DNA of 64,000 nucleotides, from assembly GCF_024502345.1 (NCBI RefSeq), contig NZ_JALDNN010000001.1. One strand, given 5' to 3'. The translations under genes were made by a program, and so were the position numbers. Source of the DNA: Escherichia coli. GTDB lineage: Bacteria; Pseudomonadota; Gammaproteobacteria; Enterobacterales; Enterobacteriaceae. A model generated the notes under the pieces. It saw nothing but the letters and a program-made list of their open reading frames with translations, had not been told where the DNA came from and searched no databases. Below, in pieces: positions 1,425-6,317 of this stretch (positions are counted from its first letter, which is position 1; every line of letters begins with the position of its first letter).

Positions 1425-1442
1425 TGAATCGCCACGGATAAT

Positions 1443-1909
1443 CTAGACACTTCCGAGCCGTTGATAATACTGGTTTTCATATTCTGTCGGTGACATCTGA
1501 TCGCTAGAACCATGCCGACGCCTACTGTTATAAAACATTTCGATGTAATCAAAAATATCGCTGCGGGCTTCTTCCCGCGTTCCGTAGATCTTTTTCTTTA
1601 TCCGCTCGCGTTTCAGTAACTGGAAAAAGCTTTCTGCAACCGCGTTATCGTGGCAGTTACCACGACGGCTCATGCTGCCCTCCAGTCCGTGTGATTTCAG
1701 GAACGACTGCCACTCATGGCTTGTGTACTGACTGCCCTGATCCGAGTGAACCAGCACCTGTTTTTGGGGGTTACGCCGCCATACAGCCATCAGCAGTGCG
1801 TTCAGGACAATGTCCTTTGTCATCCGGGATTGCATTGACCAGCCGATAATTTTACGTGAGAACAGATCAACAACCACGGCAAGATACAGCCAGCCTTCGT
1901 GAGTCCTGA
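1443..1909 (-). CDS. IS3-family transposase OrfB, exon 2 (C-terminal integrase half)
   Basis: Track ORF 1443..1877 (…[17 protein letters not shown]…HSDQGSQYTS…CHDNAVAESFF…) has DDE-type IS3 transposase motifs; extended to 1909 at the mapped intron 3' splice site. Confidence 0.8.
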
Positions 1910-4179
1910 GTAGAGTAAGAGGCAGGGCGTAGTCGGACTATTTCCCTGCCTCTCCTCCCCGAACCGGACGTGCACCTTTCAGCGCATCCGGCTCTCCATT
2001 TAAATGCTGGCGAACGCCATTGCCACTTCTGTAAAGCGCGATGTATACGTGTTTCTGGTCTCCGTCCTCAGATAGGGATTACCTTCGGGTAGCCGCCAGC
2101 GGAACAGCTTCTTGCCTTGCCCCACCAACCGGTACAGTATTTCGCCGCTGAGCTTGCCGTGATTGGTTTTACCAAATAAAACCCACGTTTTGCTCTGACC
2201 CGGTTTCGGTGATTTACACCACCACCTCATCAGGGAAGCGATACCTGTACGGTATTTGCGGGCCAGCCAGTGAGCCAGCTTCCAGAACACGACACGGTCG
2301 ATATAACTGAAGACTTTGGCCTTAAAATCAACGAACTGATAGAACATAGCCCAGCCTTTCAGTTTTCGGTTGAGTTGTTCAGCCATATCGACTTTGCTTT
2401 CACTGTAGTTGCCTGATAACAGTGCTGTCAGCGATGCGGCGAAGTTTCTGGCTTTCTCCTGCGGGATCGTTGAGACCACTCGCATCTCGCCATAACGACT
2501 GCGTTTGCGAATGATCCTGTGCCCCAGAAAGATAAAGCCGTCATTAACATGGGTGATTTTAGTCTTATCCATGTTCAGCCTGAGTTTCAGACTGCCTTCG
2601 AGCACACCCCGACACTCCTCCCTGATGGCTTCCGCCTGTGCTTTGGTGCCTTTGACGATGAGGACAAAATCATCGGCATAGCGGCAGTACGCCACCGCGG
2701 GTTTCCACTGCCAGTTTTCTCTGACCGCCGTACTTCGGCCCCGTTGGATACTGTTATTCCAGTACCACCGATCTTTTCTGGCTTTCCCGCTCAGGTAGCG
2801 CTCATGCAGGTATTGATCGAACTCATTCAGCATGATGTTCGATAATAGCGGCGATATAACACCGCCCTGTGGCACACCTTCACTGGCCGCCCGAAAGAGA
2901 CCGACATCGATATGTCCCGCCTTGATGGTTTTCCACAGCAGAGTCATGAAACGTGCGTCACTGATCCTGCGGCGTACAGCCTTCATCAGCAGTCGATGAT
3001 GTACGGTGTCGAAGTAACTGGACAGGTCGCCTTCAATCACCCAGCGTCCCCGGGTTTCACCACAGTCTGTGAGCTGTAATTTCACCGTGCGGATCGCGTG
3101 GTGGACACTGCGCTCAGGCCGGAAGCCATATGAGAGCGTATGAAAATCACTCTCCCATATCGGCTCCATCGCCATCAGCATGGCCCGCTGAACAATACGA
3201 TCCCGCAACGCGGGGATACCCAGTGGTCGCAGTTTGCCGTTGCTTTTAGGGATGTAAACCCGTCTGGCGGGCAAGGGCTGGTAGTGGCCTGAGAGTAATT
3301 CATCCCTGAGGATTTGCAGCTCAACAGCCAGTCTGGCCTGTAGCATTGTTTTGTTCACGCCATCAACGCCGGGGGTATGGGCCCCCTTTGATGAAAGCGT
3401 GATCCGCGCCGCTTCAGCCAGCCATTCTGGTTGTGTTATCAGACGCAGCAGCCGTTGAATCCGTAGGGACGGATCGGTGGCTGCCCATGTGGCAAGCTTG
3501 CGTTGCATTTCGCTGATTATCAAAGGTCTTCACCTCGTTAGGTCAGTTAATTCACGTCGCAAACACATTCAAACTGCTTCCCTTCGCCATGTAATGGGCT
3601 TTCCCCATCGCGGACTACTACGGAAGCTCCGCCAGCCAGCGCGTCATCGGAGCCATGCCCCCTTAACATCCGTCGCTGACCTTCCCCGGTTTACCTGCCT
3701 GGACTCAGGCATACTGAGGAGGCTGCCCGTCGCACTCTTTATCCTTGCTTGCCGCAAGTTGGCAGAAGTCAGCAACGCAAGCGTGATAGACGCTGCTGCC
3801 CCGGTGTTTCGCATACATGTCAAAACACCTTCGACCGGCAGTGCTTACGTATCACTGCCAGTTCCTCCTGCACGGCCTGTCAGATCACGTAGGCCGTGGT
3901 GACGTTTTCAACCCACAGAGGCGGATTAACGGGTTCATGTTCTTCAGCCTTTCAGTACTTAACCTTGAGGATCATCTCGGCTTAGTGATCTCGCCTCAAT
4001 CCCCGTTGTCAGCGGGTTACATCACCCTGCGGGCATGCCGCAGGTCACTGCCGCTCAGGTTCTCCACCGTCACACCCGGTGGGATTGTTGGGTTTCTCAT
4101 CGTGAGTTACCGGTTCAATATTCCAGACAGACTCGCGGTTCATTTAAGCATCCATGCCCGCCCTGAACTCCGGGCACAC
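1910..4179 (-). mobile_element. Group II intron (about 2.27 kb) inserted in the IS3-family orfB
   Basis: 5' end GTGTG (revcomp of 4175..4179); domain V-like GAGCCGGATGCGCTGAAAGGTGCACGTCCGGTTC just 3' of the maturase ORF; 3' end ...AC at 1911..1910. Joining the flanks restores orfB as [20 protein letters not shown]. Confidence 0.85.
2000..3523 (-). CDS. Group II intron-encoded reverse transcriptase/maturase
   Basis: 507-aa ORF with RT motifs (…LRPLGIPALRDRIVQ…, YADDFVLIV) and a C-terminal maturase/X domain; lies in intron domain IV. Confidence 0.9.
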   Translation of the reverse strand: MIISEMQRKLATWAATDPSLRIQRLLRLITQPEWLAEAARITLSSKGAHTPGVDGVNKTMLQARLAVELQILRDELLSGHYQPLPARRVYIPKSNGKLRPLGIPALRDRIVQRAMLMAMEPIWESDFHTLSYGFRPERSVHHAIRTVKLQLTDCGETRGRWVIEGDLSSYFDTVHHRLLMKAVRRRISDARFMTLLWKTIKAGHIDVGLFRAASEGVPQGGVISPLLSNIMLNEFDQYLHERYLSGKARKDRWYWNNSIQRGRSTAVRENWQWKPAVAYCRYADDFVLIVKGTKAQAEAIREECRGVLEGSLKLRLNMDKTKITHVNDGFIFLGHRIIRKRSRYGEMRVVSTIPQEKARNFAASLTALLSGNYSESKVDMAEQLNRKLKGWAMFYQFVDFKAKVFSYIDRVVFWKLAHWLARKYRTGIASLMRWWCKSPKPGQSKTWVLFGKTNHGKLSGEILYRLVGQGKKLFRWRLPEGNPYLRTETRNTYTSRFTEVAMAFASI

Positions 4180-4611: not shown

Positions 4612-5832
4612 TGTAGATTCAATTGGTCAACGCAACAGTTATGTGAAAACATGGGGTTGCGGAGGTTTTTTGAATGAGACGAACATTTACAGCAGAGGAA
4701 AAAGCCTCTGTTTTTGAACTATGGAAGAACGGAACAGGCTTCAGTGAAATAGCGAATATCCTGGGTTCAAAACCCGGAACGATCTTCACTATGTTAAGGG
4801 ATACTGGCGGCATAAAACCCCATGAGCGTAAGCGGGCTGTAGCTCACCTGACACTGTCTGAGCGCGAGGAGATACGAGCTGGTTTGTCAGCCAAAATGAG
4901 CATTCGTGCGATAGCTACTGCGCTGAATCGCAGTCCTTCGACGATCTCACGTGAAGTTCAGCGTAATCGGGGCAGACGCTATTACAAAGCTGTTGATGCT
5001 AATAACCGAGCCAACAGAATGGCGAAAAGGCCAAAACCGTGCTTACTGGATCAAAATTTACCATTGCGAAAGCTTGTTCTGGAAAAGCTGGAGATGAAAT
5101 GGTCTCCAGAGCAAATATCAGGATGGTTAAGGCGAACAAAACCACGTCAAAAAACGCTGCGAATATCACCTGAGACAATTTATAAAACGCTGTACTTTCG
5201 TAGCCGTGAAGCGCTACACCACCTGAATATACAGCATCTGCGACGGTCGCATAGCCTTCGCCATGGCAGGCGTCATACCCGCAAAGGCGAAAGAGGTACG
5301 ATTAACATAGTGAACGGAACACCAATTCACGAACGTTCCCGAAATATCGATAACAGACGCTCTCTGGGGCATTGGGAGGGCGATTTAGTCTCAGGTACAA
5401 AAAACTCTCATATAGCCACACTTGTAGACCGAAAATCACGTTATACGATCATCCTTAGACTCAGGGGCAAAGATTCTGTCTCAGTAAATCAGGCTCTTAC
5501 CGACAAATTCCTGAGTTTACCGTCAGAACTCAGAAAATCACTGACATGGGACAGAGGAATGGAACTGGCCAGACATCTAGAATTTACTGTCAGCACCGGC
5601 GTTAAAGTTTACTTCTGCGATCCTCAGAGTCCTTGGCAGCGGGGAACAAATGAGAACACAAATGGGCTAATTCGGCAGTACTTTCCTAAAAAGACATGTC
5701 TTGCCCAATATACTCAACATGAACTAGATCTGGTTGCTGCTCAGCTAAACAACAGACCGAGAAAGACACTGAAGTTCAAAACACCGAAAGAGATAATTGA
5801 AAGGGGTGTTGCATTGACAGATTGAATCTACA
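4612..5832 (+). mobile_element. IS30 (1221 bp) inserted in the IS3-family element
   Basis: Left end TGTAGATTCAATTGGTCAACGCAACAG at 4612, right end …ATTGAATCTACA at 5832; flanked by GC (4610..4611) and GC (5833..5834), a 2-bp target duplication. Confidence 0.95.
4674..5825 (+). CDS. IS30 transposase
   Basis: 383-aa ORF MRRTFTAEEKASVFELWKNGTGFSEIANILGS… matches my memory of the E. coli IS30 transposase (HTH N-terminus, DDE core). Confidence 0.95.
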   Translation: MRRTFTAEEKASVFELWKNGTGFSEIANILGSKPGTIFTMLRDTGGIKPHERKRAVAHLTLSEREEIRAGLSAKMSIRAIATALNRSPSTISREVQRNRGRRYYKAVDANNRANRMAKRPKPCLLDQNLPLRKLVLEKLEMKWSPEQISGWLRRTKPRQKTLRISPETIYKTLYFRSREALHHLNIQHLRRSHSLRHGRRHTRKGERGTINIVNGTPIHERSRNIDNRRSLGHWEGDLVSGTKNSHIATLVDRKSRYTIILRLRGKDSVSVNQALTDKFLSLPSELRKSLTWDRGMELARHLEFTVSTGVKVYFCDPQSPWQRGTNENTNGLIRQYFPKKTCLAQYTQHELDLVAAQLNNRPRKTLKFKTPKEIIERGVALTD

Positions 5833-6089
5833 GCGGCTTTTTTTAATATGTCCCGTTCGTCGGTAACCCGCTTCAGCTCTTTCTGAAGGCGGCGGATCTC
5901 GGTCTGAGCATCTGACTGTTCTTTATTAGTGGAAGAATCCGGGCCGTACTTCTTTATCCAGGCGTAAAGGCTGTGGGTGGTGATATCGAGACGTGTTGCA
6001 ACGCTGGCAACAGAATAACCGCGATCAACAACCTGTTTGACTGCTTCAATTTTAAACTCTTCGGGATAACGCTTACCGCTCATGGGCAC
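5833..6089 (-). CDS. IS3-family OrfA (HTH), split by IS30; last 9 codons resume at 4609..4582
   Basis: MSGKRYPEEFKIEAVKQVVDRGYSVASVATRLDITTHSLYAWIKKYG… Removing IS30 and one GC copy gives …ILKKAAAYFAKLSD*, a typical IS3 OrfA end. Confidence 0.8.
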
Positions 6090-6317
6090 CTCTCTTTAAG
6101 CCATCTTAAATGACTCTGAGGTGTCTGTTAAACCCGTGGCGATTCAAGAAGGTTGAATATGATTCCCGACTCATTAATGGAACGCTGCATGATGTTATGC
6201 ATTACGGGTTGACATTACGATGTGACGGGCCGGGTTAGCTGTATGGAGCCTGTACACAAGTTTGTGTAATTGCCTGATTTTGATATGTTCAATTCAACAT
6301 CAAAAGCAGGTTACTTT

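What the first reader, a model, noticed from the sequence alone, without database searches (positions are those of the whole stretch)
1425..6146. Three-level nested mobile elements: IS3-family element carrying a group II intron and an IS30
Removing IS30 (with one GC copy) and the intron reconstructs a canonical IS3-family element with OrfA ending AAAYFAKLSD and an OrfB spanning the DITY…GWLYLAVV junction. The host IS has no target duplication itself (flanks CTG vs AGA), suggesting later rearrangement at its ends.
Basis: seen in the sequence. Interest (0 to 1): 0.5.

Follow-up and report, generated by a model that had tools for sequence, protein, structure and literature searches.

The report
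Dead IS3 element hosting two guests
A 1.2-kb IS3-family insertion sequence has been invaded separately by the E. coli group II intron E.c.I4 and by IS30, an ordinary and recurrent arrangement because both invaders home to conserved sites in IS3-family transposase genes, and this copy also marks a roughly 32-kb deletion.

Summary
Window 1425-6146 (minus strand) is a 1229-bp IS3-family element with two independent insertions. One is IS30 (4612-5832, 1221 bp, 2-bp duplication GC). The other is a 2270-nt group II intron (1910-4179, minus).

Removing both in silico restores OrfA, an A7 slippery site and an intact OrfB. The result aligns without gaps to intact annotated copies at 97% identity.

The intron is E.c.I4, which is already known to home into IS3-family transposase genes. 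E. coli K-12 carries the analogous IS911A::IS30A plus ykfC arrangement.

The same architecture occurs in 38 complete E. coli genomes and at least 25 plasmids. Host-IS sequences differ by 1.5-4% between copies, while the intron and IS30 are nearly identical. Three IS30 isoforms and both IS30 orientations occupy the same site. The structure is therefore assembled repeatedly by two site-specific invaders and is not a one-off.

IS30's site lies 5 nt after the -1 frameshift heptamer. In viral contigs, 28 of 35 IS30 ends lie in that window of IS3-family elements.

The missing target duplication is explained. Relative to related megaplasmids, the composite replaces about 32 kb. Its right junction coincides with the tip of an older 41-bp remnant of the same IS.

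"Three-level" is a misnomer, because this is one host with two separate guests. The finding is ordinary and of low-to-moderate interest.

The parts
1425..6146 (-). Whole composite (4722 bp). It is a 1229-bp IS3-family host element plus two guests.
   Evidence: The inverted repeat is at these ends. Alignment boundaries fall here in 38 E. coli genomes and at least 25 plasmids.
6109..6146 (-). Host IS left inverted repeat (IRL, the orfA end), with the tip ...CCCGTGGCGATTCA abutting AGAAGG.
1425..1462 (-). Host IS right inverted repeat (IRR, the orfB end).
5835..6083 (-). Host orfA, 5' part, with ATG at 6083. It now reads on into IS30, giving the 114-aa ORF at 5745-6089.
   Evidence: The start codon is the same as in the PGAP CDS of the intact copy. 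NCBIfam NF033516 matches positions 1-85.
5838..5844 (-). A_AAA_AAA slippery heptamer of the programmed -1 frameshift. IS30 lies 5 nt downstream of it.
4612..5832 (+). IS30 (1221 bp), oriented opposite to the host IS.
   Evidence: It differs by 1-2 nt from IS30 copies in other composites.
4674..5825 (+). IS30 transposase gene, intact, 383 aa.
   Evidence: NCBIfam NF033563 scores 276 bits against a cutoff of 80. The protein is identical to WP_001254932.1.
4610..4611 (.). GC, one copy of the 2-bp IS30 target duplication. The other copy is at 5833-5834.
4180..4609 (-). The last 9 orfA codons and its stop (4609-4582), followed by the N-terminal half of orfB up to ...DITY and the first base of the Ile codon. 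This is the intron's 5' exon.
1910..4179 (-). Group II intron E.c.I4 (2270 nt), in the sense orientation within orfB.
   Evidence: It is 99.7-99.8% identical to the K-12 ykfC fragment, which PMC3522654 lists as E.c.I4.
2000..3508 (-). Intron-encoded protein, 502 aa, with reverse transcriptase and maturase domains and no HNH endonuclease domain.
   Evidence: TIGR04416 scores 341 bits against a cutoff of 300. Pfam finds RVT_1 and GIIM only. The protein is identical to WP_001189111.1.
1910..1996 (-). Intron domains V and VI.
   Evidence: Rfam RF00029 scores 64.9 bits, E = 2.4e-11.
1443..1909 (-). C-terminal half of orfB ([13 protein letters not shown]... to the stop). This is the intron's 3' exon.
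   Evidence: The reconstructed OrfB scores 355.8 bits on NF033516 against a cutoff of 160.
1424..1425 (.). Left deletion junction. The backbone sequence (an MFS-transporter gene region) stops at 1424.
   Evidence: In pMB18183_1 and pCY-CTXM-15 the same sequence continues ...GGTATCTG|ACTGAAATC into Cap15/CD-NTase genes.
6146..6147 (.). Right junction. IRL is joined to AGAAGG at the very bond where related replicons carry the tip of a 41-bp IRR remnant of the same IS.

Best explanation
What it is. Window 1425-6146 is a non-autonomous copy of a 1229-bp IS3-family insertion sequence on the minus strand. It has been colonised at two separate positions by two still-intact selfish elements.

The intron. 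The group II intron E.c.I4 reverse-spliced (retrohomed) in the sense orientation into orfB, after the first base of the Ile codon of the conserved D-I-T-Y-I motif. In principle it can still be spliced out of a transposase transcript.

IS30. It integrated with a 2-bp duplication (GC) 5 nt downstream of the A7 frameshift heptamer, in the antisense orientation. This separates orfA from orfB by 1.2 kb and prevents synthesis of the OrfAB transposase. What remains is an OrfA-like protein with a foreign tail.

Why the arrangement recurs. Both guests are site-specific for sequences conserved among IS3-family transposase genes. The same architecture is therefore assembled repeatedly and independently in different IS3-family hosts.

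The ends. This copy sits on a heavy-metal/efflux island of IncFIB/IncHI1B-type megaplasmids. It marks a deletion of about 32 kb, which is why it has no 3-bp duplication. Its IRL is fused to the backbone exactly at the tip of an older 41-bp IRR remnant of the same IS. That points either to a deletion between the 15-nt identical IR tips or to a transposase-mediated IR-targeted event.

What is shown. Shown here are the anatomy, the identities, the recurrence, the hot-spot statistics and the deletion relative to relatives.

What is inferred. Inferred are the order of the events, the splicing competence, the loss of OrfAB and the chemistry of the deletion.
For: Protein families are supported above curated cutoffs.

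The intron is E.c.I4. It is 99.7-99.8% identical to the K-12 ykfC fragment. PMC3522654 lists an E.c.I4 fragment in MG1655 and states that E.c.I4 inserts at specific positions of IS629, IS911, ISEc16 and ISEc31 transposase genes.

The same two guests sit at homologous positions in unrelated hosts. In K-12 IS911 the IS30 duplication is AC and IS30 has the opposite orientation (the IS911/IS30A map is in PMC9333248). In an ISEc31-like IS the same pattern is seen.

There are 38 E. coli genomes and at least 25 plasmids with the colinear composite.

The modules are mosaic. Host parts differ by 18-49 nt of 1231, whereas the intron differs by no more than 6 nt of 2270 and IS30 by no more than 2 nt of 1221. 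Three IS30 isoforms (0%, 10% and 17% divergent) occupy the identical site. L009 and L011 share locus and host sequence but carry IS30 and IS30H respectively. L003 and L013 share locus, host and IS30H but carry introns 7.6% apart. The IS30 differences run from about position 27 to 1210, that is, everywhere except the terminal repeats.

IS30 occurs in the opposite orientation in the same host IS, with and without the intron (L017, L025).

28 of 35 IS30 ends in IMG/VR contigs lie in IS3-family frameshift windows of five sequence types.

Census by genome: intact host IS in 184, IS30 only in 236, intron only in 12, both in 38.

Deletion. The flanks lie 31,974 bp apart and co-oriented in pCY-CTXM-15. 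The 41-bp IRR remnant abuts AGAAGG in L004 and L006.
Against: No experiment shows splicing, IS30 hot-spot use or loss of OrfAB.

For this particular copy, I cannot tell whether the guests arrived before or after the host IS reached this replicon.

The module mosaic could in part reflect IS30 IR-targeted replacement or gene conversion instead of fresh hot-spot insertions.

Genome counts are inflated by clonal sampling.

Exact EBS complements of the 5' exon were not found in the intron. Only a wobble-tolerant candidate exists, and it was not evaluated.

The source replicon and the immediate ancestor of the deletion were not found.
Confidence: 0.85

Rival explanations
1. Single-origin composite. 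The IS3::intron::IS30 unit arose once. It has spread as a 4.7-kb unit, mobilised in trans by OrfAB from intact sibling copies or carried by horizontal transfer and recombination. The window received it ready-made.
For: Both host IRs are intact. The composite is flanked by perfect 3-bp duplications at four distinct loci: GCT, AAA, AGT and CTT. The intron and IS30 are nearly identical among copies. Multiple identical IS3::IS30 copies occur within single genomes in IMG/VR.
Against: Host-IS parts are 1.5-4% divergent between loci, while the guests are at most 0.3% divergent. Identical host and locus carry different IS30 isoforms (L009 versus L011) or different introns (L003 versus L013). Both IS30 orientations occur in the same host IS. 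The same pair of guests occurs in IS911 and in an ISEc31-like IS, which share no DNA similarity with this host. As a family-wide account this rival is rejected. For the window's own copy it is not excluded.
Confidence: 0.3
2. The missing duplication results from homologous recombination between two full-length, co-oriented copies of the IS, one in the MFS region and one next to AGAAGG. This would delete the interval and leave a hybrid IS.
For: This is the commonest route to IS-bounded deletions. The flanks are co-oriented and 32 kb apart in relatives.
Against: In both relatives whose junction sequence was read (L004, L006), the IS sequence next to AGAAGG is a 41-bp remnant and it is the IRR end. 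It therefore has the opposite orientation to the window's IS, whose IRL abuts AGAAGG. No full copy at either site was seen in the 55 kb of pCY-CTXM-15 that was examined.
Confidence: 0.12
3. Assembly or annotation artefact. Repeated mobile elements were mis-joined by an assembler into a chimeric contig.
For: Stacked repeats are a classic source of mis-assembly.
Against: The identical gap-free 4722-bp architecture is present in more than 60 independent complete assemblies. The junctions carry the expected 2-bp duplication and exact intron boundaries.
Confidence: 0.01

Closest known systems
E. coli K-12 CP4-6 prophage region insN - insI1 (IS30A) - insO - ykfC, that is IS911A interrupted by IS30A and by a group II intron fragment
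   Same: The architecture is the same: an IS3-family host with IS30 inserted at the homologous codon just 3' of the frameshift heptamer (TTAAAAAAGGCTAC| versus TTAAAAAAAGCCGC|). E.c.I4 is inserted after the first base of the Ile codon of D-x-T-Y-I (PMC9333248 and PMC3522654).
   Different: The host IS is different, since IS911 shows no detectable DNA similarity. IS30 is in the opposite orientation. The duplication is AC instead of GC. The K-12 intron is cut at nt 1764 at a junction that precedes an annotated IS5, and the rest of that host IS is lost. In the window all three elements are full length.
Group II intron E.c.I4 and its homing into IS3-family transposase genes (Leclercq & Cordaux 2012, PMC3522654)
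   Same: It is the same intron, 99.8-100% identical to thousands of E. coli copies. The insertion position and sense orientation in orfB are the same.
   Different: The host here is a 1229-bp IS that is neither IS911 nor ISEc31. From my own recall of its sequence and length, it is not IS629 either. It may be ISEc16 by elimination, but this was not tested.
IS30 dual target specificity, meaning near-palindromic hot spots and its own IRs (Olasz and co-workers, summarised in PMC9333248)
   Same: The 2-bp duplication is present. Insertions at one precise site are repeated and occur in either orientation. The site contains the palindrome GCCGCGGC centred on the duplication.
   Different: I did not find it stated in the papers I could search that the natural hot spot coincides with the -1 frameshift window of IS3-family elements. 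The published 24-bp consensus could not be retrieved for a formal comparison.
IS911 / IS3-family 'targeted' insertion next to resident IRs (Loot et al. 2002, cited in PMC4471558)
   Same: One end of the IS is joined exactly at the tip of a pre-existing IR of the same IS.
   Different: The remnant itself is gone. The joined ends are IRL and the former IRR site in direct orientation, which a 15-nt direct-repeat deletion explains equally well. The mechanism is unresolved.

Membership tests
IS3 family insertion sequence (host) | Terminal imperfect inverted repeats ending 5'-TG...CA-3' | tested here: met
   The arms are 38 nt and 74% complementary, at 1425-1462 and 6109-6146, reading TGAATCGCC...GGCGATTCA.
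IS3 family insertion sequence (host) | Two consecutive ORFs (orfA and orfB in the -1 phase) joined by a programmed -1 frameshift at an A-rich heptamer | tested here: met
   After in-silico excision there is a 92-aa OrfA, the heptamer A_AAA_AAA and OrfB in the -1 frame. The intact sibling is annotated 'programmed frameshift'.
IS3 family insertion sequence (host) | DDE (rve-type) transposase matching the family model | tested here: met
   With NCBIfam NF033516, OrfB scores 355.8 bits against a cutoff of 160. OrfA covers model positions 1-85.
IS3 family insertion sequence (host) | 3-4 bp target-site duplication | tested here: not met
   The window has CTG versus AGA, which is explained by the 32-kb deletion. 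Sibling copies have GCT, AAA, AGT and CTT duplications. The feature is therefore met for the element type but lost in this copy.
IS3 family insertion sequence (host) | Colinear with an intact family member | tested here: met
   There are 1229 of 1229 aligned positions with no gaps and 34 mismatches against pMY504-1. An ISfinder name could not be assigned.
IS30 | 1221 bp with terminal inverted repeats, one transposase ORF of 383 aa and a 2-bp duplication | tested here: met
   NF033563 scores 276 bits against a cutoff of 80. The protein is identical to WP_001254932.1, annotated 'IS30-like element IS30 family transposase'.
IS30 | Insertion into a near-palindromic hot spot | tested here: inconclusive
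   Use of this exact site is recurrent, in either orientation and by several isoforms, and there is a central GCCGCGGC palindrome. The published consensus was not available for scoring. The lambda LHS left arm (AATAAAAGTGGCG) resembles the site only loosely.
Mobile group II intron (E.c.I4) | Conserved boundaries (5' GUGYG, 3' AY) and the catalytic domain V / branch-site domain VI | tested here: met
   The intron runs from GTGTG to CTAC. RF00029 scores 64.9 bits against a gathering score of 40 and ends at the last intron base.
Mobile group II intron (E.c.I4) | Intron-encoded reverse transcriptase/maturase in domain IV | tested here: met
   TIGR04416 scores 341 bits against a cutoff of 300. RVT_1 and GIIM are present and there is no HNH domain. 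The ORF starts at intron position 672.
Mobile group II intron (E.c.I4) | Sense-strand insertion at the specific IS3-family orfB homing site | tested here: met
   The position is the same (TA(Y)A|TC) in three different hosts. This is as described in PMC3522654.
Mobile group II intron (E.c.I4) | EBS-IBS pairing with the flanking exon, and splicing activity | tested here: inconclusive
   No exact 5-7 nt complements of the exon were found. I noticed a G-U-tolerant candidate (UGUGGG, about nt 280), but no tool was run to evaluate it. Splicing itself cannot be tested with these tools.

The most novel reading that the evidence does not exclude
IS30-family elements may use the conserved programmed -1 frameshift cassette of IS3-family transposase genes (...ATATTAAAAAA(A)G + 4-5 nt) as their principal natural hot spot. 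This would be an IS-within-IS 'safe harbour' that also disables the competitor's OrfAB transposase while leaving an OrfA-type regulator. Combined with E.c.I4 homing to the D-x-T-Y-I site, this would make the IS3::IS30::intron triple a convergently and repeatedly assembled structure, with more copies of this IS occupied by IS30 than free of it. I did not find this generalisation stated in the literature I could search. It may nevertheless be implicit in the original IS30 hot-spot papers, which I could not read.
Probability: 0.5. Interest if true: 0.45.

Novelty: new member of a known kind. Interest (0 to 1): 0.27.

Why it matters
The window's feature itself is routine mobile-DNA debris and has no bearing on cellular function.

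Its value is as a clean, fully intact example of two well-known behaviours: E.c.I4 homing into IS3-family transposase genes, and IS30 hot-spot insertion. It is also a marker of a 32-kb deletion that removed a CBASS module, two RND efflux systems and other cargo from a megaplasmid-type island.

The side observation is modestly useful. IS30 overwhelmingly lands in the frameshift window of IS3-family elements, in several hosts, in both orientations and as several isoforms. This could help IS annotation by predicting split 'IS3 family transposase' pseudogenes. It could also inform thinking about competition between insertion sequences, and it is directly testable with a trap plasmid.

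Tried and rejected
Scans of GTDB species representatives. I searched for the right flank and for the left junction. Both gave 0 hits, so the source organism and any intermediate structure remain unknown.

Replicon identification. A search with window 18001-43000 against plasmids gave only mosaic matches covering at most 43%. The right flank also occurs in an E. coli chromosome. Plasmid versus chromosome is therefore undecided.

Naming the host IS. It is not IS911 and not ISEc31. PGAP gives only 'IS3 family'. Literature searches for ISEc16 were uninformative. ISEc16 remains a guess by elimination.

The published 24-bp IS30 consensus. It was not retrievable. The comparison with the lambda LHS hot spot was only qualitative.

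Exact EBS1/EBS2 complements of the 5' exon. None were found.

Rfam sub-threshold scan for domain I-IV class models. Nothing appeared beyond domain V/VI, so the intron's structural class was not assigned.

Rejected: a clonal single-origin composite as the family-wide explanation.

Rejected: homologous recombination between two full IS copies as the cause of the deletion, because the resident remnant has the wrong orientation.

Full report
OBSERVATION. Reading 1201-6400 and listing ORFs shows, on the minus strand, an IS3-type orfA and two halves of an IS3-type orfB. These are separated by an IS30 transposase gene on the plus strand and by a reverse-transcriptase ORF on the minus strand.

The repeat finder gives a 38-nt inverted repeat exactly at 1425-1462 and 6109-6146, and the IS30 terminal repeats around 4612 and 5832. 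IS30 is 4612-5832, which is 1221 bp, with GC on both sides.

The intron is 1910-4179 on the minus strand, 2270 nt, beginning GTGTGCCCGG and ending CTCTAC. Rfam's group II domain V/VI model scores 64.9 bits against a gathering score of 40, and the match ends on the last intron base.

Deleting IS30 with one GC, and the intron, yields a 1229-bp element. It has a 92-aa OrfA (...LKKAAAYFAKLSD*), the heptamer A_AAA_AAA and a -1 frame OrfB in which ...[20 protein letters not shown]... is restored. The flanks are CTG and AGA.

The two guests occupy separate sites in the host, so the nesting is two-deep with two guests, not three-deep.

IDENTITIES. OrfB scores 355.8 bits on NCBIfam's IS3-family model (cutoff 160). 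The IS30 transposase scores 276 bits (cutoff 80). The intron protein scores 341 bits on the group II RT/maturase model (cutoff 300). Pfam finds RVT_1 and GIIM in the intron protein and no HNH domain.

The intron protein and the IS30 transposase are identical to WP_001189111.1 and WP_001254932.1 respectively.

The reconstructed host aligns without gaps over 1229 of 1229 positions, with 34 mismatches, to an intact IS on plasmid pMY504-1. PGAP annotates that IS as 'IS3 family transposase, programmed frameshift'. Uninterrupted copies occur in 184 of 5,426 complete E. coli genomes.

The intron is present at 80% coverage or more in 1,873 E. coli genomes, mostly at 99% identity or more. It is 99.8% identical to the truncated ykfC of K-12. 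Leclercq & Cordaux (PMC3522654) list an E.c.I4 fragment in MG1655. [quoted passage not shown] The intron is therefore E.c.I4.

THE ARRANGEMENT IS COMMON AND RECURRENT. The colinear 4722-bp composite is found in 38 complete E. coli genomes. It is also found in at least 25 plasmids of Citrobacter, Enterobacter, Klebsiella, Raoultella and E. coli. Some of these copies are further interrupted, with IS110- or IS66-family genes annotated under the match.

K-12 carries the analogous structure in CP4-6: an orfA fragment, IS30A, an orfB fragment and the intron, which is cut at nt 1764 next to an annotated IS5. That host is IS911, which has no detectable DNA similarity to the window's host, and IS30 is in the other orientation.

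The insertion points are nevertheless homologous. For IS30 the sites are IS911 ...TTAAAAAAGGCTAC|[IS30]|ACCGCG and the window's ...TTAAAAAAAGCCGC|[IS30]|GCGGCG. For the intron they are GACCTATA|GTGTG and AACCTACA|GTGTG.

An ISEc31-like IS on a 19.8-kb E. coli plasmid shows the same pair again.

A junction-specific census in E. coli gives IS30 only (this orientation) in 236 genomes, the intron only in 12, both in 38 and the intact IS in 184. These counts are per genome and are not corrected for clonality. They show that this IS is found occupied by IS30 at least as often as free of it.

INDEPENDENT INVASIONS RATHER THAN ONE SPREADING COMPOSITE. I aligned nine composites and counted differences per module.

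- Host parts fall into five haplotypes that differ by 18-49 nt of 1231. The window's haplotype is 3-4% from all others.
- The intron differs by no more than 6 nt of 2270, with one exception described below.
- IS30 comes in three isoforms: IS30, IS30H (10% divergent) and a third type (17% divergent). All three sit at the same position with the same GC duplication.
- L009 and L011 are the same locus (duplication AGT) with identical host sequence, yet they carry IS30 and IS30H respectively.
- L003 and L013 are the same locus (GCT) with identical host sequence and identical IS30H, yet their introns are 7.6% apart.
- The isoform differences run from about position 27 to about 1210 of IS30, that is, everywhere except the conserved terminal repeats. 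The 432-bp host segment between the two guests is as divergent as the rest of the host. This argues against co-conversion.

In IMG/VR contigs the same host IS also carries IS30 in the opposite orientation, once with the intron (L017) and once without (L025).

The family-wide picture is therefore repeated site-specific colonisation. IS30's known IR-targeting and gene conversion could account for some of the isoform swaps.

For the window's own copy, I cannot tell whether the guests arrived before or after the IS reached this replicon.

IS30 HOT SPOT. A scan of IMG/VR for the IS30 left end returned 35 ends. Of these, 28 abut the frameshift window of IS3-family elements of five sequence types. 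These types are IS911 and a variant of it, the window's IS, and two others with ...ATATTAAAAAAAGCAAC| and ...ATATTAAAACAGACCAC|. Both orientations occur for IS911 and for the window's IS.

The remaining sites also show A-rich arms followed by GGC or GCC next to the duplicated dinucleotide, for example AGAAAAAGGCACT and GTTAAAGAAGGCTCT.

Several loci have chimeric flanks, such as L016, L019, L036 and L037. This indicates recombination between IS30 copies lodged in different IS3 hosts.

The published 24-bp consensus could not be retrieved. The lambda LHS hot spot (PMC9333248 gives its coordinates) has a loosely similar left arm.

FLANKS AND THE MISSING DUPLICATION. The left flank (1-1424) is 99.9% identical to plasmid pMB18183_1, where the sequence continues past ...GGTATCTG into Cap15/CD-NTase genes. 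The right flank (from 6147) is 99.9-100% identical to a region of the E. coli EH09-18-41 chromosome. It also matches 18 IncFIB/IncHI1B-type megaplasmids of Klebsiella, Citrobacter, Raoultella and E. coli.

In C. youngae pCY-CTXM-15 both flanks are present in the same orientation, with 31,974 bp between them. This interval includes an ISKpn26-like gene that interrupts the CD-NTase region. It holds a Cap15/CD-NTase (CBASS) pair, NIPSNAP, IS fragments, ppaC-uspA-eno-gpmA-crcB, two RND efflux systems, baeS/creB, mipA and a copper chaperone. The window's composite replaces this interval.

In both relatives whose junction sequence I read (L004 and L006), AGAAGG is preceded by a 41-bp remnant of the IRR (orfB) end of this same IS, with 1 mismatch. 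In the window it is the IRL tip that is joined to AGAAGG at the identical bond. The remnant tip and the IRL tip share 15 identical nt (ACCCGTGGCGATTCA).

Two routes fit these facts.

- The IS first inserted at the MFS site. The interval was then lost by recombination between the 15-nt direct repeats.
- A transposase-mediated IR-targeted event took place, as known for IS911 and IS30 (cited in PMC4471558), and was followed by an adjacent deletion.

Recombination between two full co-oriented copies is disfavoured because the resident remnant has the opposite orientation. Sibling composites elsewhere keep perfect 3-bp duplications (GCT, AAA, AGT, CTT), so the lack of one here is specific to this copy.

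HOW IT WORKS (inference). The intron lies in the sense orientation and has intact catalytic and protein-coding parts, so it could splice from any transcript that crosses orfB.

IS30 lies 5 nt after the slippery heptamer in the antisense orientation. It separates orfA from orfB, so OrfAB cannot be made and the host IS cannot move by itself. An OrfA-like 114-aa ORF with an IS30-derived tail remains (5745-6089). The host's IRs are intact, so mobilisation in trans is conceivable but not shown.

Both guests encode intact proteins and may still be active.

NOVELTY. All three element types, E.c.I4's preference for IS3-family genes, IS30's hot-spot behaviour and the K-12 example are established. The window adds another host IS and a full-length example. 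I file it as a new member of a known kind, with low-to-moderate interest.

I did not find one observation stated in the searchable literature: that IS30's natural hot spot coincides with the IS3-family frameshift window and is used repeatedly. That is the most novel reading the evidence allows.

DEAD ENDS. Two scans of species-representative genomes gave nothing. The replicon of the window was not identified. The host IS could not be named. EBS/IBS pairing was not established. No intron class model matched beyond domains V/VI.

Noticed in passing
L015-L047 (IMG/VR contigs), compared with window 5833-5850: 28 of 35 IS30 left ends abut the -1 frameshift window (...ATATTAAAAAA(A)G + 4-5 nt) of five different IS3-family sequence types. 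Both orientations occur for IS911 and for the window's IS. The remaining sites also have A-rich arms plus GGC/GCC next to the 2-bp duplication.
   Followed up: yes
L004 8960-9000 and L006 19960-20000, compared with window 6146|6147: Both related replicons whose junction sequence I read carry a 41-bp remnant of the IRR end of the same IS exactly where the window has the IRL tip. The remnant tip and the IRL tip share 15 identical nt. How one end came to replace the other end at the same bond is unresolved.
   Followed up: partly
Interval missing between window 1424 and 6147 (pCY-CTXM-15 OV141394.1 141647-173620; L007 23027-35000 plus L006 1-20000): About 32 kb of cargo is absent from the window. 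It comprises a Cap15/CD-NTase (CBASS) defence pair, NIPSNAP, ppaC-uspA-eno-gpmA-crcB, two RND efflux systems, baeS/creB, mipA and a copper chaperone.
   Followed up: partly
L013 (K. pneumoniae pBckp021-1) compared with L003 (E. coli pABW_S38a): The locus, host IS and IS30H are identical in the two, but the E.c.I4-type introns differ by 173 nt (7.6%) spread over the whole intron. The intron was therefore either acquired twice or replaced at one site.
   Followed up: partly
L016, L019, L036, L037: These IS30 copies have flanks that come from two different IS3-family hosts, or from the same host inverted (a perfect palindromic flank in L037). This is the signature of recombination or inversion between IS30 copies lodged in different IS3 elements.
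   Followed up: no
L050 1500-4770 (E. coli ET300 plasmid, NZ_CP100977.1): An ISEc31-like IS3-family element has an IS30 end at its frameshift window and E.c.I4 at GDITY|I. This is a third unrelated host with the same two guests.
   Followed up: partly
Hits H1, H8, H9 and H137-H144, H152; L001 6764-7900: Many composites are interrupted further, with IS110-family genes (Citrobacter plasmids) or IS66-family genes (E. coli) annotated under the match. In K-12 an annotated IS5 lies just beyond the point where the intron is cut. I did not map the IS110/IS66 insertion positions.
   Followed up: no
window 6318-6900 (+) and 6854-7030 (-): An IS256-family transposase pseudogene has an in-frame stop after MDEKQL. 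It overlaps a 5' fragment of a type VI secretion tssB gene. Both are also present and annotated as partial in the related replicons.
   Followed up: no
window 589-1407 (-): The MFS-transporter gene on the left flank is already split into two ORFs (589-1194 and 1234-1407). It is also split in the related plasmids, where it is annotated as two MFS CDSs. The IS junction lies 17 nt upstream of the second ORF's start.
   Followed up: no
(E. coli complete genomes): For this IS, copies carrying IS30 (236 + 38 genomes) outnumber uninterrupted copies (184 + 12 genomes). The intron is rarer in this host (50 genomes), although it is present in 1,873 genomes overall. Counts are not corrected for clonal sampling.
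   Followed up: partly
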